Assembly: GCA_964016885.1 (NCBI GenBank)
Contig: OZ024740.1
Location: 125,674,001 to 125,738,000, forward strand
Source: Eledone cirrhosa
Lineage: Eukaryota
Length of the DNA: 64,000 nucleotides
Direction: 5' to 3'
Part shown: piece by piece, positions 1,716 to 54,957 of the stretch
Layout: each line of letters begins with the position of its first letter
How positions within the stretch are numbered: position 1 is the first letter of the stretch
Position numbers and translations under genes: made by a program
The notes under the pieces: generated by a model
Database searches by the model: none
Told to the model about the DNA's origin: nothing
What the model saw: the letters and a program-made list of their open reading frames with translations, nothing else

Positions 1716-2050
1716 TTAGAAAGTGAGGTTTTTTTTACAAATTGAAAAATAACCGAGTTGTCCTACACGAGTGAAAGTATAAAGAAAAAGAGATGAAATC
1801 GAAAATGCAACTGGAGTTTTATGTTTTTTAAAAATATATATATTTATTTGGTTCCTTTACCGGTTTAGCAGTTCTTCTGCTTTTCAAAAGTAGAGTTGAG
1901 ATGGAGCGTCTGTAGTTTTTCTCACATCATATATATATATATGTGTATATATATATTTATATATATATATATTTATATATTTATATATATATATATTTAT
2001 ATAATATATTTATATATATATATTTATATATATTTATATATATACATATA

Positions 2051-2130: not shown

Positions 2131-3068
2131 TTGGTATAATTTCACCCAAACTTTAGGAGTCCTATAATGAAACGAGACGTCCGTCTGGGAAGAGATATAT
2201 TAGATATGTCTCATTTGAAATAATACAGCCAATTTTCCACGCAATACTTTTAGTTAGCACCCCGAACACATAATTGGGAATATAATCACTTATTTCCTAA
2301 TGTTTGTTGAGTGAGTTGAAATTTGGCCGGAGTATCGCTAAAAAGCTTTCTCCGATATTGTATTTATTTACTTACTCTTGGTGCAGCAGATTTGAAAAAA
2401 ATTCCCGGTATAAGGTTAGCATTCCTTTGTTTATTTTTTATATATGAATATTGATTGTTCCTTATATCTCATTCTGTTATTTTGCCCGAGAAAATATCTG
2501 TGTGTGTCATCAAATGTTGTACACACATAGACATTTTTTCAATTTCCAATTGAGTTCTTAGCACGTGGCCTGAATTCCTTTCAGAGTTCATTGTCAAGCG
2601 CATGTATTGTTTTTTTTTGGCGGTAATTCACTGCCTCAATTTTTTAATCAGTTCGAGCACTTCTTTCAGAACTGCTGGACTGGCTACCTGACAGATACCT
2701 CAGGCACAGAAAGTGATTATCGCTAAATGCTGATGTTGGTTAGATTATCAATATTAGTATTATTGGGGCACCCACTGACGAATTATAGGAGCCCACTTGA
2801 ATATATATCTATTGATGGTATACAAGCTCCTACATAAATTGGTATAATTTCACCCAAATTGTAGGAGTCCTATAATGAAACGAGACGTCCGTCTGGGAAG
2901 AGATATATTAGATATGTCTCATTTGAAATAATACAGCCAATTTTCCACGCAATACTTTTAGTTAGTACCTCGAACACATAATTGCGAATATAATCAATTA
3001 TTTCCTAATGTTTGTTGAGTGAGTTGGAATTTGGCCGGCGTATCGCTAAAAAGCTTTCTCCGATATTG

Positions 3069-3078
<10 letters not shown>
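2131..3078 (+). mobile_element. Non-autonomous PLE-like/retrozyme element: 709-bp period, ~238-bp terminal direct repeats, flanked by (TA)n
   Basis: 2131-2368 is repeated at 2840-3078 with a few substitutions. No ORF. It contains an HHR at 2771-2897. Confidence 0.8.
2771..2897 (+). ncRNA. Type I hammerhead ribozyme with long branched stem II
   Basis: CCCA-CTGACGA-ATTATAGGA[~77 nt: hairpins CTTG..CAAG and CTCCTACA..TGTAGGAG]TCCTATAAT-GAAA-CG(AGACGTC)CG-TC^TGGG. Confidence 0.8.
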
Positions 3079-3374: not shown

Positions 3375-3408
<34 letters not shown>

Positions 3409-3540
3409 TTCAGTTATTAGGAGTATTCCAAAGCTTGGTAGAACAAGTTGTGAGGAAAGTTCTCAACATACGTTAAGGTGACTCGACAGGTTGGTAGGGA
3501 TTCTGTAGTGGAAACACGAACAAACGAGGAGTGTAATCAA

Positions 3541-4533
3541 AGAAGAGAAATAGGACGAAGGTAAACAATTACAAAAGAATTTAATCCACGTATTTACAAT
3601 TGTTTCATCAGAATTTCAGTCCATTATTGCTACACTAAGTTATAATAGGCAATCAAGAAAGAATTTTCAAAATACAAAGTTGGAATGACCTTAGGAAATG
3701 AAATAAGGGGTAGTAGTGTAAGATAGAGGAACAGAGAGAGAGAGAGGGGCAAAAGAGAGGGAGAGAGAGAGAGAGAGAGAGAAAAGGGATAGAGGAAGGG
3801 AGAGAAAGAGATAGTGTGGTGTGAGAGGATTTGTATAGGAAGGGGGAGGAGGGATGTGTGCTAAAAGTTGTGATGAGTAGAGGGAGAGAGAAGGAAGATA
3901 GAATTTTAAGAGGCATTTGGAAGTGGACAGGCGAAAGTTTGACCAGGGAACAGATGAAGGAAGAAAGTATTAAATTTCATATATAGTCTATTTTTAGGGG
4001 TGTAGAATTGTTATTTAGGGTAGAAAGATAGGTAGTGTTAGGATTTGGTTGAAGGTTTGAAGTGTGAGAATTTCGCTTTAATACTTTCTTCCTTCATCTG
4101 TTCTCTGGTAAGACCATCGCCTGTCCACTTCCAAATGCCTCTTAAAATTCTATCTTCCTTCTCTCTCCCTCTACTCATCACAACTTTTAGCACACATCCC
4201 TCCTCCCCCTCCCTATACAAATCCTCTCACACCACACTATCTCTTTCTCTTTCTCTCCCTTCCTCTATCCCTTTTCTCTCTCTCTCTCTCTCTCTCTCCC
4301 TCTCTTTTTCCCCTCTCACTCTCTCTGTTCCTCTATCTTACACTACTACCCCTTATTTCATTTCCTAAGGTCATTCCAACTTTGTATTTTGAAAATTCGG
4401 ATGCCACAGTATCTTTCTTGATTGCCTATTATAACATAGTGTAGCAATAATGGACTGAAATTCTGATGAAACAATTGTAAATACGTGGATTAAATTCTTT
4501 TGTAATTGTTTACCTTCGTCCTATTTCTCTTCT
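3541..4533. repeat. Long inverted repeat (arms ~3541-3974 and ~4077-4533), PLE pLTR-like, in (TA)n
   Basis: The arms are reverse complements, including a GA/CT microsatellite. The right arm carries an HHR; the left-arm copy has a ~15-nt deletion in stem II. Confidence 0.9.
4384..4484 (+). ncRNA. Variant (U3-A8) type I hammerhead with extended stem II
   Basis: GTATT-TTGAAAA-T-TCGGA[~60 nt]TCTGA-T-GAAA-CAATTG-TA^AATAC: stem I GTATT/AATAC, palindromic stem III, GUA site. Confidence 0.7.
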
Positions 4534-4604
4534 ATATATATATATATAAATATATATATATATTGTAATAATAATAAATTTGAAGACTAAAATCCAAAGA
4601 CGGC

Positions 4605-13722: not shown

Positions 13723-16182
13723 CTATATATAGGGCTTAAAGTTTTGGAAGGAATGTCTGAGGCGGTGCTGGCAAGTTGCAAACACCTCAGATTTTTTGTT
13801 AAGTAGGTTACGGTTGGAGAAGATAATATTGTGTGTCTCTAGTATACAGAGGTTACAGAATTTATTAGGTGGTTTGTACGAGGTCGCGCTGCCTATCACT
13901 TCCCATTTGAGTGTGTATGGTTTATTTTTAGATTTTAGATAGTGTATGTAGCTAGAAAGTGAGGTGGAGTTGGCTAGGCTGTGCTTTTTGAACGAGTGGA
14001 TGTGCGAGTTATATCTAATTTTGAAGCAGTTAGAAGTGGAGCCTACATAGGTTTCTGAAGAGTTATTAGTCGTGACTGTGCATGAGTATATGACATCCTT
14101 GGTTAGGCATTTTTTATCTAAAGGGCAGGTTCTATTAGCTCTACAGTTACAATTATTCTGTGCGTTAGTCCGCTGGTTATAATGCAATGCGGAAGTCTGT
14201 GTGGTGGATATAGGATTTTGGGTGTTCAGGTTGACAACCCTGGTGTTATTACTTATACTAGTGTTATTTCTATTGTTACTGCCGTTGCTATTGTTGCTTG
14301 CTACAGTGGTATTTAGAGGGTTTGCATCCCGTTGTGATTTTGTTTGTTGGAAGTAAGAACTAATTTTACTATTATTGCTGCTAGCTATGTGGTATGCTAA
14401 GTTAGGCGTCGTAGAGTATGAGATTTTAATGGTGTTTTTGTTTAAGAGGTTGTGGTACTTGTGTCCTAGAGGGAAGTTTTTATCTAGTAGTGAGAAGAAA
14501 GCCCTAGGTATGTTGGTGGAGACATTTAGGTTGAAAGGAGGGTTGAAAAATGTATTATTTCTTCTTCTATTTTTGCTTTTAGTGTTTGGTGTGTTGCTTC
14601 CTCCTAAGGCCTCACAGTAGTTTCCATGGTAATGGTTACTTCCGGTGGCACCCTCCGCTTTGGTGTACTTGTGGTTGCTATTCCTATTATTAGATTTCCT
14701 CATGGACATGTTGTGCGAGATGATGTTGTAGCTATGTGTTTTCTTAGGTAGGAACTCTATTTCTATATTATGGCCGGAGCTAGCTAATGCTTGATTGTAA
14801 TATTGTGAGTTTTTGCTAAATATGTTTGCGTCATAGGACAGACTAGAGATTCTATTGGACACCCCCTTAGAGATAGAGTTTAATATTGATCTAGGGTGAT
14901 TAGACTTGGTATCTACGTAAATAAGTTTCTCATTAGGCTTATGGAAAGGTGTATATATTTTTGAGTCTAGGTATAGTGTGGCGTCTAGGAAGTTAACATT
15001 TTTAGTGTTTTTGTCCATGGTGATACTAAGGTTAAAGTTTTTGAATGTCTTATGCAGTTGTTTTCTAGTTCTTTCTATATTAAATTTTTTATATTCTATG
15101 AGTAGAAGTGCATCATCGCGGTACAAACCACCGTTGAGGTAAGGGAGGTCTTTATGGATTTCATTGAGGAGGTATAGGCCGACCAAATCAGTGACCTGCG
15201 CCGAGTCACTAGATCCCATGGTTATGTCGAAGTTGTTGTGCGTATCCTTGCGTGTCCATAGTTGGTCCTCGAAGGTGATTATGGTTTTACGGGCCGCAAG
15301 GATGACATCAACCTGGGCTCTAGTCAGGTCGCTATTGGTCATGGCCATGATAAGTGCCTTATTTAATAGGATAGGGGAAATAGAGGTGTAGTATGAATTG
15401 ATATCAAATTGAATAAATTTTTTGTTCTTATTATTCTTGATATCCTTAAACCATTCAATTACTTCACCCGTATTTCCCCATTGTTTAAGGTGTATCTTGT
15501 GTTTAATTTGTGGGATGATTTTATCCAAAATCTTCTTGCTGATAATACCAATGTCGGACTTGGAAGGGCAGATAAGTCTTATCGTGGGGTTGCTGATGAA
15601 GTTCTCCTTATGGTCCTTCAGAGAGAATCTAGGGGGGTTCGGAGTGAAAGGTTGTGTATGCCTCTGTAGTCCTAGTTTAGACACTATATTATAACCCTCT
15701 ACATTAATATCTTCTAAGTTTTTCAAGGTGGTTTTTTTGTAGCTTTTATGTAGTTCATTATATATAAACTTTCTATAAGTAATATAATCTAGGCTGTATA
15801 TGTTATTAGTTTTATCTGCGTGTACAATAATTTTATTACTAGTTTTGAATCCACTAATAGAAGTGTTAAGTTTGTTTAAGAAGGTGTTGCTTCTAATATG
15901 GTGCTTATTGTATTTAATGTTCTTAACTAGTTTAACTAGGTCATTTTCAAAGGAGTTAAGTAGAGTGTTATGAGGGGGGCTTTTAAAGGTTTTAAAGCCG
16001 AAGGAGTCAAAATTGTTAGTATTATTCAAGTTGTTAGATTTGTTTCTATCATAATGGAATGTCCTCCATCTCACTCTATTGATAAATGAATTTACACTGT
16101 TGATCAGCAATTTCTCATATGTATTCCTGGATGGTATTGGTATGTTCTTGGTCGACATGGGGAGTTGGTCTTTGATTAGCAT
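13723..16182 (-). CDS. PLE reverse transcriptase / GIY-YIG endonuclease, 819 aa
   Basis: STKNIPIP N-terminus, ADKT, LKDHK..IRLICP, QFDINSYYTSI, TMGSSDSA, GLYRDD, FLD, KP, CNC-x5-CP-x4-C linker, VIYSC..TYVGSTS..FKIRYNSH, CNLC..E..LN..SE..CQH. Confidence 0.96.
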   Translation of the reverse strand: MLIKDQLPMSTKNIPIPSRNTYEKLLINSVNSFINRVRWRTFHYDRNKSNNLNNTNNFDSFGFKTFKSPPHNTLLNSFENDLVKLVKNIKYNKHHIRSNTFLNKLNTSISGFKTSNKIIVHADKTNNIYSLDYITYRKFIYNELHKSYKKTTLKNLEDINVEGYNIVSKLGLQRHTQPFTPNPPRFSLKDHKENFISNPTIRLICPSKSDIGIISKKILDKIIPQIKHKIHLKQWGNTGEVIEWFKDIKNNKNKKFIQFDINSYYTSISPILLNKALIMAMTNSDLTRAQVDVILAARKTIITFEDQLWTRKDTHNNFDITMGSSDSAQVTDLVGLYLLNEIHKDLPYLNGGLYRDDALLLIEYKKFNIERTRKQLHKTFKNFNLSITMDKNTKNVNFLDATLYLDSKIYTPFHKPNEKLIYVDTKSNHPRSILNSISKGVSNRISSLSYDANIFSKNSQYYNQALASSGHNIEIEFLPKKTHSYNIISHNMSMRKSNNRNSNHKYTKAEGATGSNHYHGNYCEALGGSNTPNTKSKNRRRNNTFFNPPFNLNVSTNIPRAFFSLLDKNFPLGHKYHNLLNKNTIKISYSTTPNLAYHIASSNNSKISSYFQQTKSQRDANPLNTTVASNNSNGSNNRNNTSISNNTRVVNLNTQNPISTTQTSALHYNQRTNAQNNCNCRANRTCPLDKKCLTKDVIYSCTVTTNNSSETYVGSTSNCFKIRYNSHIHSFKKHSLANSTSLSSYIHYLKSKNKPYTLKWEVIGSATSYKPPNKFCNLCILETHNIIFSNRNLLNKKSEVFATCQHRLRHSFQNFKPYI

Positions 16183-16224
16183 ATTGGCAATATTATATGT
16201 CAGCTCAACGATATGGAGCAGTTA

Positions 16225-16472
16225 ATAGTATTAGTTATACTATTTATGGTTATGTAAACACAAAACCTTAAGCAGTTGTAAGTATTTTACACACACCCTA
16301 AATAGTGGTAGGCAGTAATGTATTACTACCTTATTACCAGTAAGTTAAGTAGCTCAATGTAAAAACATCAGATGATTTACAGAGCAGTTATATGAAATAT
16401 AAGAATCAAAGAACTGTTCAAAACATTATTGTGCTTACAGCTGTTTCCTCCAAACCGAGGTTTGGATTCTTC
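16225..16472 (-). repeat. 5' pseudo-LTR, beginning inside the hammerhead core
   Basis: Direct repeat of 12026-12273. On the minus strand it starts at GAAGAATCCAAACC. Confidence 0.95.
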
Positions 16473-18031
16473 ATTTATATTTCATATATTTCATATATTT
16501 ATATATATACATTTATATATATATATATTTATATATATTTATATATATATATTTTTATATATATATTTACATATATTTATATATATATATTTATATATAT
16601 ATATTTATATATATTTATATAGATATATATATTTATATAGATATATATATTTATATATATTTATATAGATATATATATTTATATATATTTATATATATAT
16701 ATATAAGAATTGGCGCTCTGAAATAGCGATATATATATGAATGTATATATAGTGTATTTTGCAATACACTATATGCTTAAAAGCATTTCGATGACCTGTC
16801 AGCTTTATCTCCCCCGTTTGCTGAAAATTAAAGTAAGTTAGACTGTCACTACTCTAAAACAATAGCATAAGGAATTCTAAGTGCTTTTAATTAAGCATAC
16901 AGTGTATTGCAAAATACACTATATATAATCCACACAATTACACAATCAGTATATCACACTGCTATATATATTTTTTCTGTTTAGTGTGTAGTGTGTGTTG
17001 CCATTTCTTTTGTTTTCATTATTTCTATTGTTATTATTGCTATTTACAGTGTTATCATTATCATTATTACTACTATTATTATCTTGTCTGTTTGTTAGTG
17101 AAATGGTATCTTTTAGCAAATGATAAAAGTTTAATAACAATAGTTTTAAATTGCTATATTCTTTGTCTTGAAACTTTGTTAATATAACAGAACAGAGTCT
17201 GCAAGATTATGAGATTCCATTATCAGGAATAGATGTTTTCCTCCTCTAATCTACACATTTAATTTATTACTTTAATAATGAGATGTCGCCAACACACTGA
17301 ATTGACAGACCATCTCATGTCACTGCAATATCTGGAATGTTCCAGCAAGTCTGTCAGTGGTTCTTTCCAGTTTCTCTAGAGGCCCTCATTGAAGAAGGCA
17401 TATAATCAATATCAGTCAGTTCTAAGACACTGGCGTAATTGTTTAGCCACACAAGAAGCTGTCACGAGAAAGAGAGGCTCACAATGAGAAACTAATATAT
17501 CTACAAAGCAGACACATGAATATTGTATAGCTAACAAGAGACAGATTTCAAGTCACTGAGAACAAATGATTTCCTTAGAAAACAAAAGGCAAGTTGGTAA
17601 CTCTAAATGGGAGAAGGTAGAATAATATTAACATTATTTATTATTGTCCAAAATGTTATTATAATAATTATTACAGTTGTAATTGTTGTTCTTATTTATT
17701 TATTTAATCATTTATTTTATTTTGTTGTATACTGCAATTTGTGAGGAATAGCATTTTGGTTATAGATATCTTATGTACCAATCAGTGGTTCCCCATATTC
17801 CTGATGATGAGAGTGTTTATCTAACTTAGTGTAGGATAAAAATAAAATAAAATTGTTTAAACTGTCTCACTGTTGTTTACATACTTTGCTAATATACACT
17901 GATAGAAGACACACATGAACACAAACACACGCACTTATTTCTATTATGTATATATATATATTTGTTGAATCACAATGAAACATGAAAGAATAGTAAACAT
18001 AAACACAGGAATGGACACATATGCATAATAT

Positions 18032-49907: not shown

Positions 49908-50246
49908 ATAGTATTAATATATAAGGAAACAAAGAATCAGTGTAGCATGATATATATATTTAACTGCATATTACATATATTTCACTGTGGATCAGCTCAA
50001 GGAACGATCTATTAATCATGGAACCTCAGAATTGGAAGCTCCTCAGATATGTCATAACATGTAGACTCGCGCCTACATGTAGACGTGAGACTACATGTTA
50101 AAACATATCTGAGGAGCTTCTGATTCCAGAGTCAGGGTTGATTAATAATAGATCATTCCTCGAGCTGATCAACAGTGAAACATATGTAATATGTAATTAA
50201 ATATGTATATGAAGCAACACTGTTTCTTTGTTCCCTTATGTATTAA

Positions 50247-54235: not shown

Positions 54236-54285
<50 letters not shown>

Positions 54286-54414
54286 AGAAGCAAAAAATTG
54301 CTTATTGTGATCCAGTTTTTGGTTAAGAAAGCCAGTTTCATGGATGGTTTCAACGTACGGTTAGGGGTAACTCCACAAGTTTGTAAGAATTCCGTTCAAT
54401 CTTGGAGTATAAAG

Positions 54415-54721
54415 TATAAAAGAGAAAACACAGGTAAGCATTAAGAGAAGGCTTTAATCCAGGTATTTACGACCGTTTCATTGGTAAGTGCAACCTTATA
54501 TTGCTATACTGCAAATAGCAGCCACTCAATTATAATTGTTGTTCACAGTCCAAATTTTCAAAATAGTCACTATTTTGAAAATTTGGACTGTGAACAACAA
54601 TTATAATTGAGTGGCTGCTATTTGCAGTATAGCAATATAAGGTTGCACTTACCAATGAAACGGTCGTAAATACCTGGATTAAATCCTTCTCTTAATGCTT
54701 ACCTGTGTTTTCTCTTTTATA
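54415..54721. repeat. Near-perfect palindrome, ~153-bp arms, 1-nt spacer at 54568
   Basis: One mismatch seen between the arms. Each arm carries a U3-A8 HHR. Confidence 0.95.
54571..54672 (+). ncRNA. Variant (U3-A8) hammerhead with extended stem II (mirror copy 54464-54565, minus strand)
   Basis: TATT-TTGAAAA-T-TTGG[~65 nt]CCAA-T-GAAA-CGGTCG-TA^AATA. Confidence 0.7.
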
Positions 54722-54957
54722 TATATATATATATATATACCTGCTACTGTACGTCTGTATACATATATGTATGTACGTATACATACATACTTACATTTAA
54801 GTAAGTGCCGTACTAAGAGTGAGATATGAAATTTCGTTTCATTCTATTCCATTTATATATATATATATATGTACATATATATATATATTTATATATATGT
54901 ACATATATATATATATTTATATATATATATATATATATATATGTACATATATATATA

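What the first reader, a model, noticed from the sequence alone, without database searches (positions are those of the whole stretch)
4384..4484. Recurrent U3-A8 (UUGAAAA) core hammerheads with long stem II
Seen: two sequence-divergent elements (4384-4484 and 54571-54672) share the layout TATT-TTGAAAA-T-[stem II with 60-65 nt insert]-T-GAAA-[6 nt]-TA^AATA. Their stem II bases differ compensatorily (TCGGA/TCTGA versus TTGG/CCAA), as does stem III (CAATTG versus CGGTCG). Known: the C3-G8 tertiary pair can be replaced by U3-A8. Inference: this is a distinct subfamily combining a variant core with an extended stem II.
Basis: partly seen in the sequence, partly recalled or inferred. Interest (0 to 1): 0.75.

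Follow-up and report, generated by a model that had tools for sequence, protein, structure and literature searches.

The report
Long-armed hammerheads of Penelope retrotransposons
Both motifs sit in the end repeats of truncated copies of a known kind of animal jumping gene and are predicted self-cutting RNAs; their swapped core base pair is already known, but their very long, conserved side arm is not among the published examples we read.

Summary
Both motifs are type I hammerhead motifs in the pseudo-LTRs of two sister families (A, B) of Hydra-clade Penelope-like elements (PLEs). Each window copy is a 5'-truncated, two-armed insertion in (TA)n. Over 1,300 exact pattern matches lie in the genome. 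The U3-A8 core, the U10.1·U11.1 mismatch and the palindromic stem III are all published. The 72-91 nt stem II is not in the published PLE sets I read. It carries compensatory changes and a 4x4 internal loop shared by four families. The two traits are not coupled: sister family D has the long arm with C3-G8, and family G has U3-A8 with a 13-nt arm. The 3-8 pair switched at least twice, both bases together, in this lineage, which points to selection on the catalytic core. Copies read through the cleavage site, so the copied RNA was mostly uncut. Cleavage is untested. The scan noted this family before on other DNA (e1-9517786, e1-9560118). Verdict: new variant of a known kind, modest interest.

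The parts
3404..4079 (-). Inverted arm of the family A insertion: last codons of the PLE ORF, 3' UTR, hammerhead, and tail ending about 185 nt past the predicted cut site at (TA)n
   Evidence: blastn against longer family A copies
3591..3674 (-). Hammerhead of the inverted arm A, with a 15-nt deletion in stem II (57 nt left)
4077..4530 (+). Sense arm of the family A insertion: 3' UTR, hammerhead, end about 50 nt past the predicted cut site at (TA)n
4384..4484 (+). Hammerhead A: 5-bp stem I, U3 (4389) and A8 (4394), U10.1·U11.1, 72-nt stem II, palindromic stem III, predicted cut 4479/4480
4421..4444 (+). Conserved 4x4 internal-loop motif in stem II of A (4421-4424 facing 4441-4444); the lowest-energy fold of this copy uses another register
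54279..54567 (-). Inverted arm of the family B insertion with an intact hammerhead (54565-54464) and tail to (TA)n
54569..54731 (+). Sense arm of the family B insertion, ending at (TA)n; 99% identical to the other arm over 153 nt
54571..54672 (+). Hammerhead B: 4-bp stem I, U3 (54575) and A8 (54580), U10.1·U11.1, 75-nt stem II, stem III self-complementary through G·U, predicted cut 54668/54669
54610..54632 (+). Conserved 4x4 internal loop in stem II of B (54610-54613 facing 54629-54632), present in the lowest-energy fold

Best explanation
The two motifs lie in the pseudo-LTRs of truncated copies of two sister Hydra-clade Penelope-like retrotransposons and are predicted to be weak, conditionally active hammerhead ribozymes, likely cutting after GUA only when two copies pair through the palindromic stem III or when the element's protein helps them fold. 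Shown: PLE context, two-armed (TA)n insertion anatomy, 3-8 covariation, compensated pairing in the long arm, and read-through of the cut site in almost all copies. Inferred: reverse transcription starts at two fixed sites about 55 and 185 nt past the cut site and copies uncut RNA from both ends of a break in (TA)n. The ribozyme would then process only part of the transcripts, for example to trim or release units from tandem read-through RNA. The long arm is an inherited peripheral RNA domain whose conserved loop may be a docking site (speculative). The window copies themselves are predicted to be inactive if transcribed through both arms, because the arms fold back on each other.
For: Upstream ORFs of A, B and D carry RWK, DKT and CxCX5C, CxxC and CxH motifs; A and B also YRDD and a GIY-YIG-like motif, matching the Hydra clade text (PMC8557442 section 11). 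Four near-full-length elements have the motif in both direct repeats, 3.0-3.4 kb apart. Counts: 119 + 1,191 exact matches, reversed-pattern control 0. With positions 3 and 8 masked, 62 U3-A8-side rows split from 56 C3-G8-side rows at 100/98; the 9 mismatch rows are scattered tips. N7 takes all four bases while the pair holds. A+B+E clade rejected, so at least two compensated switches. Basal stem II: 5 of 6 pairs and distal helix 6 of 7 pairs change on both sides; 91% paired against 39-48% when slid. Stem III self-duplex -6.4 and -5.8 kcal/mol; monomer hammerhead fold 2.9 and 5.2 kcal/mol above the lowest-energy fold. 3' ends bimodal: A 27 at +50-59 and 28 at +180-199 of 58; B 34 at +40-69 and 29 at +170-199 of 77. 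No pile-up of 5' ends at the cut site. The Anolis PLE hammerhead cut only with protein, and uncut RNA was the template (PMC11167929).
Against: No cleavage data. RNAalifold recovers only the distal helix, at -0.48 kcal/mol. Folding z-scores of the inserts are modest (medians -0.9 to -2.0) and near zero for the whole window motifs. The structure tested was drawn from these sequences and copies are related, so counts overstate events. Most copies were found with patterns that fix core letters, so subfamilies with a broken core could be missed. Two insertions carry the same 3-8 mismatch in both arms (L168; a pair on C28), so core-mutant RNA can be copied at least once. Families E1-E3 have an imperfect stem III palindrome (-2.9 kcal/mol).
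Confidence: 0.75

Rival explanations
1. The motif no longer cuts in the cell. The hammerhead-shaped fold and long arm are kept only as a recognition structure for the PLE protein near the sites where copying starts.
For: Almost all copies read through the cut site. Core-mutant templates were copied. Hammerhead mutants did not affect insertion in vitro for the Anolis element. G10.1-C11.1 is replaced by U·U.
Against: The 3-8 pair, which matters for the active core, was kept through at least two double changes. N7 is free. U10.1·U11.1 occurs in natural hammerheads and is the best-tolerated mismatch (PMC3088659).
Confidence: 0.12
2. The long stem II supplies a tertiary contact that makes these hammerheads fast as monomers and offsets the U3-A8 pair (the strong form of the first reader's idea).
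For: A, B and E combine both traits. The arm is conserved in structure and carries a conserved loop.
Against: Family D has the same arm with C3-G8 and family G has U3-A8 without it. The conserved loop lies far out on the arm. Stem III is weak and palindromic, and the monomer fold is not the lowest-energy one.
Confidence: 0.08
3. The long insert is neutral filler or serves at DNA level (for example as part of the internal promoter), and its apparent structure is incidental.
For: Weak consensus fold. Several unrelated C3-G8 motifs in this genome also have 48-96 nt arms, so long arms are easily tolerated.
Against: Stepwise A-U, G·U, G-C changes in the distal helix. The loop motif is found in 200 of 263 copies across families whose endonucleases are about 50% identical.
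Confidence: 0.05

Closest known systems
Minimal and near-minimal hammerheads of metazoan PLEs, including the U3-A8 variant of Schistosoma mansoni Cercyon elements (Cervera and De la Pena 2014, PMC4209133; parts 1-2 of 4 and supplement parts 1-2 of 3 read)
   Same: Type I motif in pseudo-LTRs, short palindromic stem III, extra base after A9, copies in opposite strands, U3-A8 core (about 1,300 hits; family 4 has the same UUGAAAA core)
   Different: Their listed representatives have short stem II loops (about 3-9 nt) and mostly G10.1-C11.1; here 72-91 nt lie between A9 and G12 with U·U at the base
Hydra clade of PLEs (Craig et al. 2021, PMC8557442; passages, section 11, supplement part 2 and searches read)
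   Same: RWK, DKT, CxCX5C, CxxC, CxH motifs, (TA)n targets, inverted truncated copy; many listed hammerheads have a U after A9 and a U before GAAA
   Different: All 26 Hydra-clade rows of File S2 have C3-G8 and loops of 3-10 nt; long arms (29-35 nt loops) are listed only for two plant PLE-X1 elements
Natural core variants of hammerheads (Perreault et al. 2011, PMC3088659; passages read)
   Same: Natural U3-A8 covariation, stated as active in vitro; natural U10.1-U11.1 mismatch
   Different: The passages read do not describe PLE context or a long conserved arm
Anolis Poseidon element PAc (Frangieh et al. 2024, PMC11167929; parts 1-2 of 4 read)
   Same: Two fixed internal start sites giving a tail; uncut RNA as template; 3-8 pair tested
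   Different: C3-G8 core overlapping the start codon; the tail cited there is 30-40 bp, here the two ends lie about 130 nt apart

Membership tests
Type I hammerhead ribozyme | Core N3-U4-G5-A6-N7-N8-A9 and G12-A13-A14 around three stems, cut site NUH | tested here: met
   site GUA in both, GUU in relatives
Type I hammerhead ribozyme | Watson-Crick pair between positions 3 and 8 | tested here: met
   U3-A8; covaries with C3-G8
Type I hammerhead ribozyme | G10.1-C11.1 pair closing stem II | tested here: not met
   U·U mismatch; a published natural variant, so not taken as excluding membership
Type I hammerhead ribozyme | Match to an Rfam hammerhead model | tested here: not met
   no hammerhead among 144 matches at E<=1; likely due to the long arm (inference)
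Type I hammerhead ribozyme | Loop I / loop II tertiary contact | tested here: inconclusive
   no candidate contact identified; only secondary-structure folding run
Type I hammerhead ribozyme | Self-cleavage | not testable with these tools
   needs an in vitro assay
PLE pseudo-LTR hammerhead (dimer type) | In both direct repeats flanking an RT-EN ORF | tested here: met
   L234, L235 (A), L098 (B), L232 (D)
PLE pseudo-LTR hammerhead (dimer type) | Short palindromic stem III | tested here: met
   8-bp self-duplex for A, B, D; imperfect in E1-E3
Hydra clade PLE | RWK and DKT motifs, C-terminal GIY-YIG-type EN | tested here: met
   Pfam gave no significant RT or EN match
Hydra clade PLE | CxCX5C linker, CxxC and CxH, no CCHH | tested here: met
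   absence of CCHH judged by eye
Hydra clade PLE | Insertion into (TA)n | tested here: met
Hydra clade PLE | Placement with published Hydra proteins in an RT tree | not tested
   published proteins were compared by eye only
Non-LTR retrozyme | Short non-coding tandem units each with a hammerhead | tested here: not met
   copies are truncated ends of coding PLEs

The most novel reading that the evidence does not exclude
The long stem II is a dedicated RNA domain of one Hydra-clade lineage whose conserved 4x4 loop binds the element's RT-endonuclease and switches the ribozyme on or off, so that one RNA is either cut or used as template; the lineage also records repeated natural C3-G8 / U3-A8 switches, possibly a full reversion.
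Probability: 0.2. Interest if true: 0.65.

Novelty: new variant of a known kind. Interest (0 to 1): 0.36.

Why it matters
What PLE hammerheads do is an open question: they cut poorly and were dispensable in the one in vitro system. A lineage that kept the 3-8 pair through at least two double changes is sequence evidence that the core is under selection. Families D and E give a natural matched pair (same arm, C3-G8 or U3-A8) for assays. Long arms also escape Rfam here, so hammerhead counts in such genomes are likely too low.

Tried and rejected
1) CUGAUGA just before GAAAC in family A as the true core: it leaves no stem II and is absent from B, D and E; rejected. 2) Convergence of A and B: inserts are homologous. 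3) Retrozyme or satellite: copies continue into PLE ORFs. 4) miRNA-like Rfam matches at 54505-54632 are far below gathering scores and reflect the palindrome. 5) Pfam and PDB searches gave nothing significant for the ORFs. 6) Metagenome (25) and viral (5) pattern matches are chance: 0-3 basal stem II pairs, 0 of 30 with the loop motif, no PLE ORF; they serve as a control. 7) Expression: no RNA holder listed; no reads were laid. 8) Direction of the 3-8 switch: neither E nor D monophyly is rejected (p-AU 0.39, 0.34); unresolved. 9) repeat finder was swamped by (TA)n. 10) The hammerhead labelling failed and was redone. 11) Lunse et al. 2017 was not held; I saw only its citation and a review's summary, so it may already list long-armed variants. 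The bioRxiv retrozyme preprint was read in part 1 of 5 only; its supplements are closed.

Full report
Observation. Both motifs are present as described. A descriptor scan of the window found them, an inverted partner of each, and a C3-G8 pair at 49968-50192. The exact pattern gives 3 matches against 0 in 100 shuffles. Rfam lists no hammerhead among 144 matches at E<=1. The two inserts align far better than shuffles (score 42 against 17 +/- 7, 0 of 500), so A and B are relatives.

Context. The window lies in a 3.0 Gb genome; earlier scan notes call it cephalopod, which I did not test. Exact patterns give 119 matches with 42-72 nt arms, 1,191 with 73-97 nt arms (the 100 listed look like family B by eye) and 791 with a GUY site (a mix of A, D and E); reversed controls are 0. 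Many copies continue upstream into an ORF. The ORFs carry RWK, DKT, CxCX5C, CxxC and CxH, and in A and B also YRDD and a GIY-YIG-like motif, the marks given for the Hydra clade (PMC8557442). Pfam and PDB searches gave no significant match. Four near-full-length elements have the motif in both direct repeats.

Anatomy of the window copies. Insertion A runs 3404-4530: an inverted arm 4079-3404 that begins in the last codons of the ORF, and a sense arm 4077-4530. Insertion B runs 54279-54731 with its centre at 54568. Both end in (TA)n. In each, one arm stops about 50-60 nt past the cut site and the other about 185 nt past it. The same two ends dominate other copies: 55 of 58 in A and 63 of 77 in B; in D/E 35 of 62 end at +30-69 and 18 at +190-259. 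This is the PLE tail signature (PMC11167929). Copying from both ends of one break is inferred. A transcript through both arms would fold back (85-88% paired).

Do positions 3 and 8 covary? Within family B, no: 7 copies lack U3 and 15 lack A8, with no C3-G8 among them; the matching wild-type count was not taken with the same pattern, but one search puts it near a thousand. Between families, yes. Family D has the same stem I, U·U mismatch and stem III as A, an arm of about 80 nt, and C3-G8. Family E has an arm alignable with D and U3-A8. In alignment A1 (73 D/E rows chosen from 82, plus 1 A and 3 B) the pair is C-G 43, U-A 27, U-G 2, other 5. A DNA tree of 118 D/E motifs with both positions masked separates the two states on one branch (100/98); the 9 mismatch rows are scattered. 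An endonuclease tree of 39 of 140 extracted rows gives A+B+D+E 100/99, A+B 80/78 and D+E 100/99, and rejects A+B+E (p-AU 0.002). Outgroups with a linked motif (L066, L258) and all published Hydra rows are C3-G8. So at least two compensated switches are needed: one gain and a reversion in D, or two gains. The direction is unresolved (only 4 partial E proteins). Caveat: E and most of D were found by patterns fixing U4, G5, A6 and A9.

Are the two traits coupled? No. D has the arm without U3-A8. Family G has U3-A8 with a 13-nt stem II and sits behind a different endonuclease type in L256. Unrelated C3-G8 motifs with 48-96 nt arms occur in flanks.

The long arm. On the named structure 91% of cells pair (39-48% when slid); 5 of 6 basal pairs and 6 of 7 distal pairs change on both sides. 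Against this, RNAalifold finds only five distal pairs and insert z-scores have medians of -0.9 (A), -2.0 (B), -1.1 (D) and -1.8 (E). A 4x4 loop motif, A-N-U-G facing N-Y-A-G, is found in 50 of 53 A, 68 of 89 B, 42 of 59 D and 40 of 62 E copies, 0.2-0.3% of shuffles and 0 of 30 chance matches from other collections. The motif was derived from these sequences, so the argument is its sharing across families about 50% identical in the endonuclease. Its function is unknown; protein docking is my guess.

Is the RNA cut before copying? Of 163 family B matches selected for a change 12 nt upstream of the site, the 30 held as loci gave 16 with the hammerhead still present, 5 breaking within 0-1 nt of the site and 9 breaking 2-9 nt upstream. 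A rough hand count of the 100 listed rows gave 13 of 65 breaks at 0-1 nt, about 6 per position throughout. There is no pile-up, and over 1,000 copies read through. Templates were therefore mostly uncut, as in PAc. Two insertions share a 3-8 mismatch in both arms.

Mechanism. Shown: context, anatomy, covariation, read-through. From established knowledge: U3-A8 cores are active (PMC3088659); PLE hammerheads with palindromic stem III cut weakly as dimers (PMC4209133); PAc needs protein. Inferred: weak conditional cleavage of part of the transcripts. The monomer fold costs 2.9 (A) and 5.2 (B) kcal/mol, and stem III can form an 8-bp self-duplex.

Comparison and novelty. U3-A8 in PLE hammerheads is published, with the same core letters. 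Arms of this length are absent from the Cervera alignment rows and the Hydra rows of Craig File S2 that I read; two plant PLE-X1 rows have 29-35 nt loops. Searches surfaced no report of a 70-90 nt stem II in PLE hammerheads, but Lunse et al. 2017 could not be read. The scan reached a similar reading on other DNA (e1-9517786, e1-9560118), which is not independent support.

Verdict. Real, explained as PLE pseudo-LTR hammerheads; new variant of a known kind; interest 0.36.

Noticed in passing
window 13723-16221 (-): Uninterrupted 832-codon Hydra-clade PLE frame, 43% identical to the family A protein over 622 aligned positions. Its upstream repeat is cut inside a short-armed hammerhead near 16420-16480.
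   Followed up: partly
window 49968-50192: Two-armed family C element with a C3-G8 core and a 56-61 nt stem II unrelated to A/B; no ORF was linked to it.
   Followed up: partly
window 1854-1891 (-); L245-L264, L256: Family G: U3-A8 core with 13-nt stem II; the window copy has lost G12. In L256 it lies about 1 kb behind an endonuclease with a Neptune-like CX4CX2C linker (clade name recalled, not tested).
   Followed up: partly
window 4500-4570 equivalent in families A, B, D: A pyrimidine-rich stretch with a branch-point-like motif and later AG follows the cut site; the first fixed 3' end falls in it. Could be a splice acceptor or only the start site of copying.
   Followed up: no
L151:2655, L175:150, L026:1085, L007, L023, L063, L068: Further C3-G8 hammerhead motifs with 48-96 nt stem II in flanking DNA.
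   Followed up: no
window 6722 (+) and 7658-7602 (-): Two more C3-G8 hammerhead motifs with 14-nt and 30-nt stem II.
   Followed up: no
window about 2133-2375 and 2839-3078: Two direct copies of a roughly 240-nt repeat between (TA)n tracts.
   Followed up: no
L162, L163, L168: Three of five C3-A8 mismatch rows in family D have C at position 7, so G8 sat in a CpG; deamination would explain them and offers a route to the switch (inference).
   Followed up: partly
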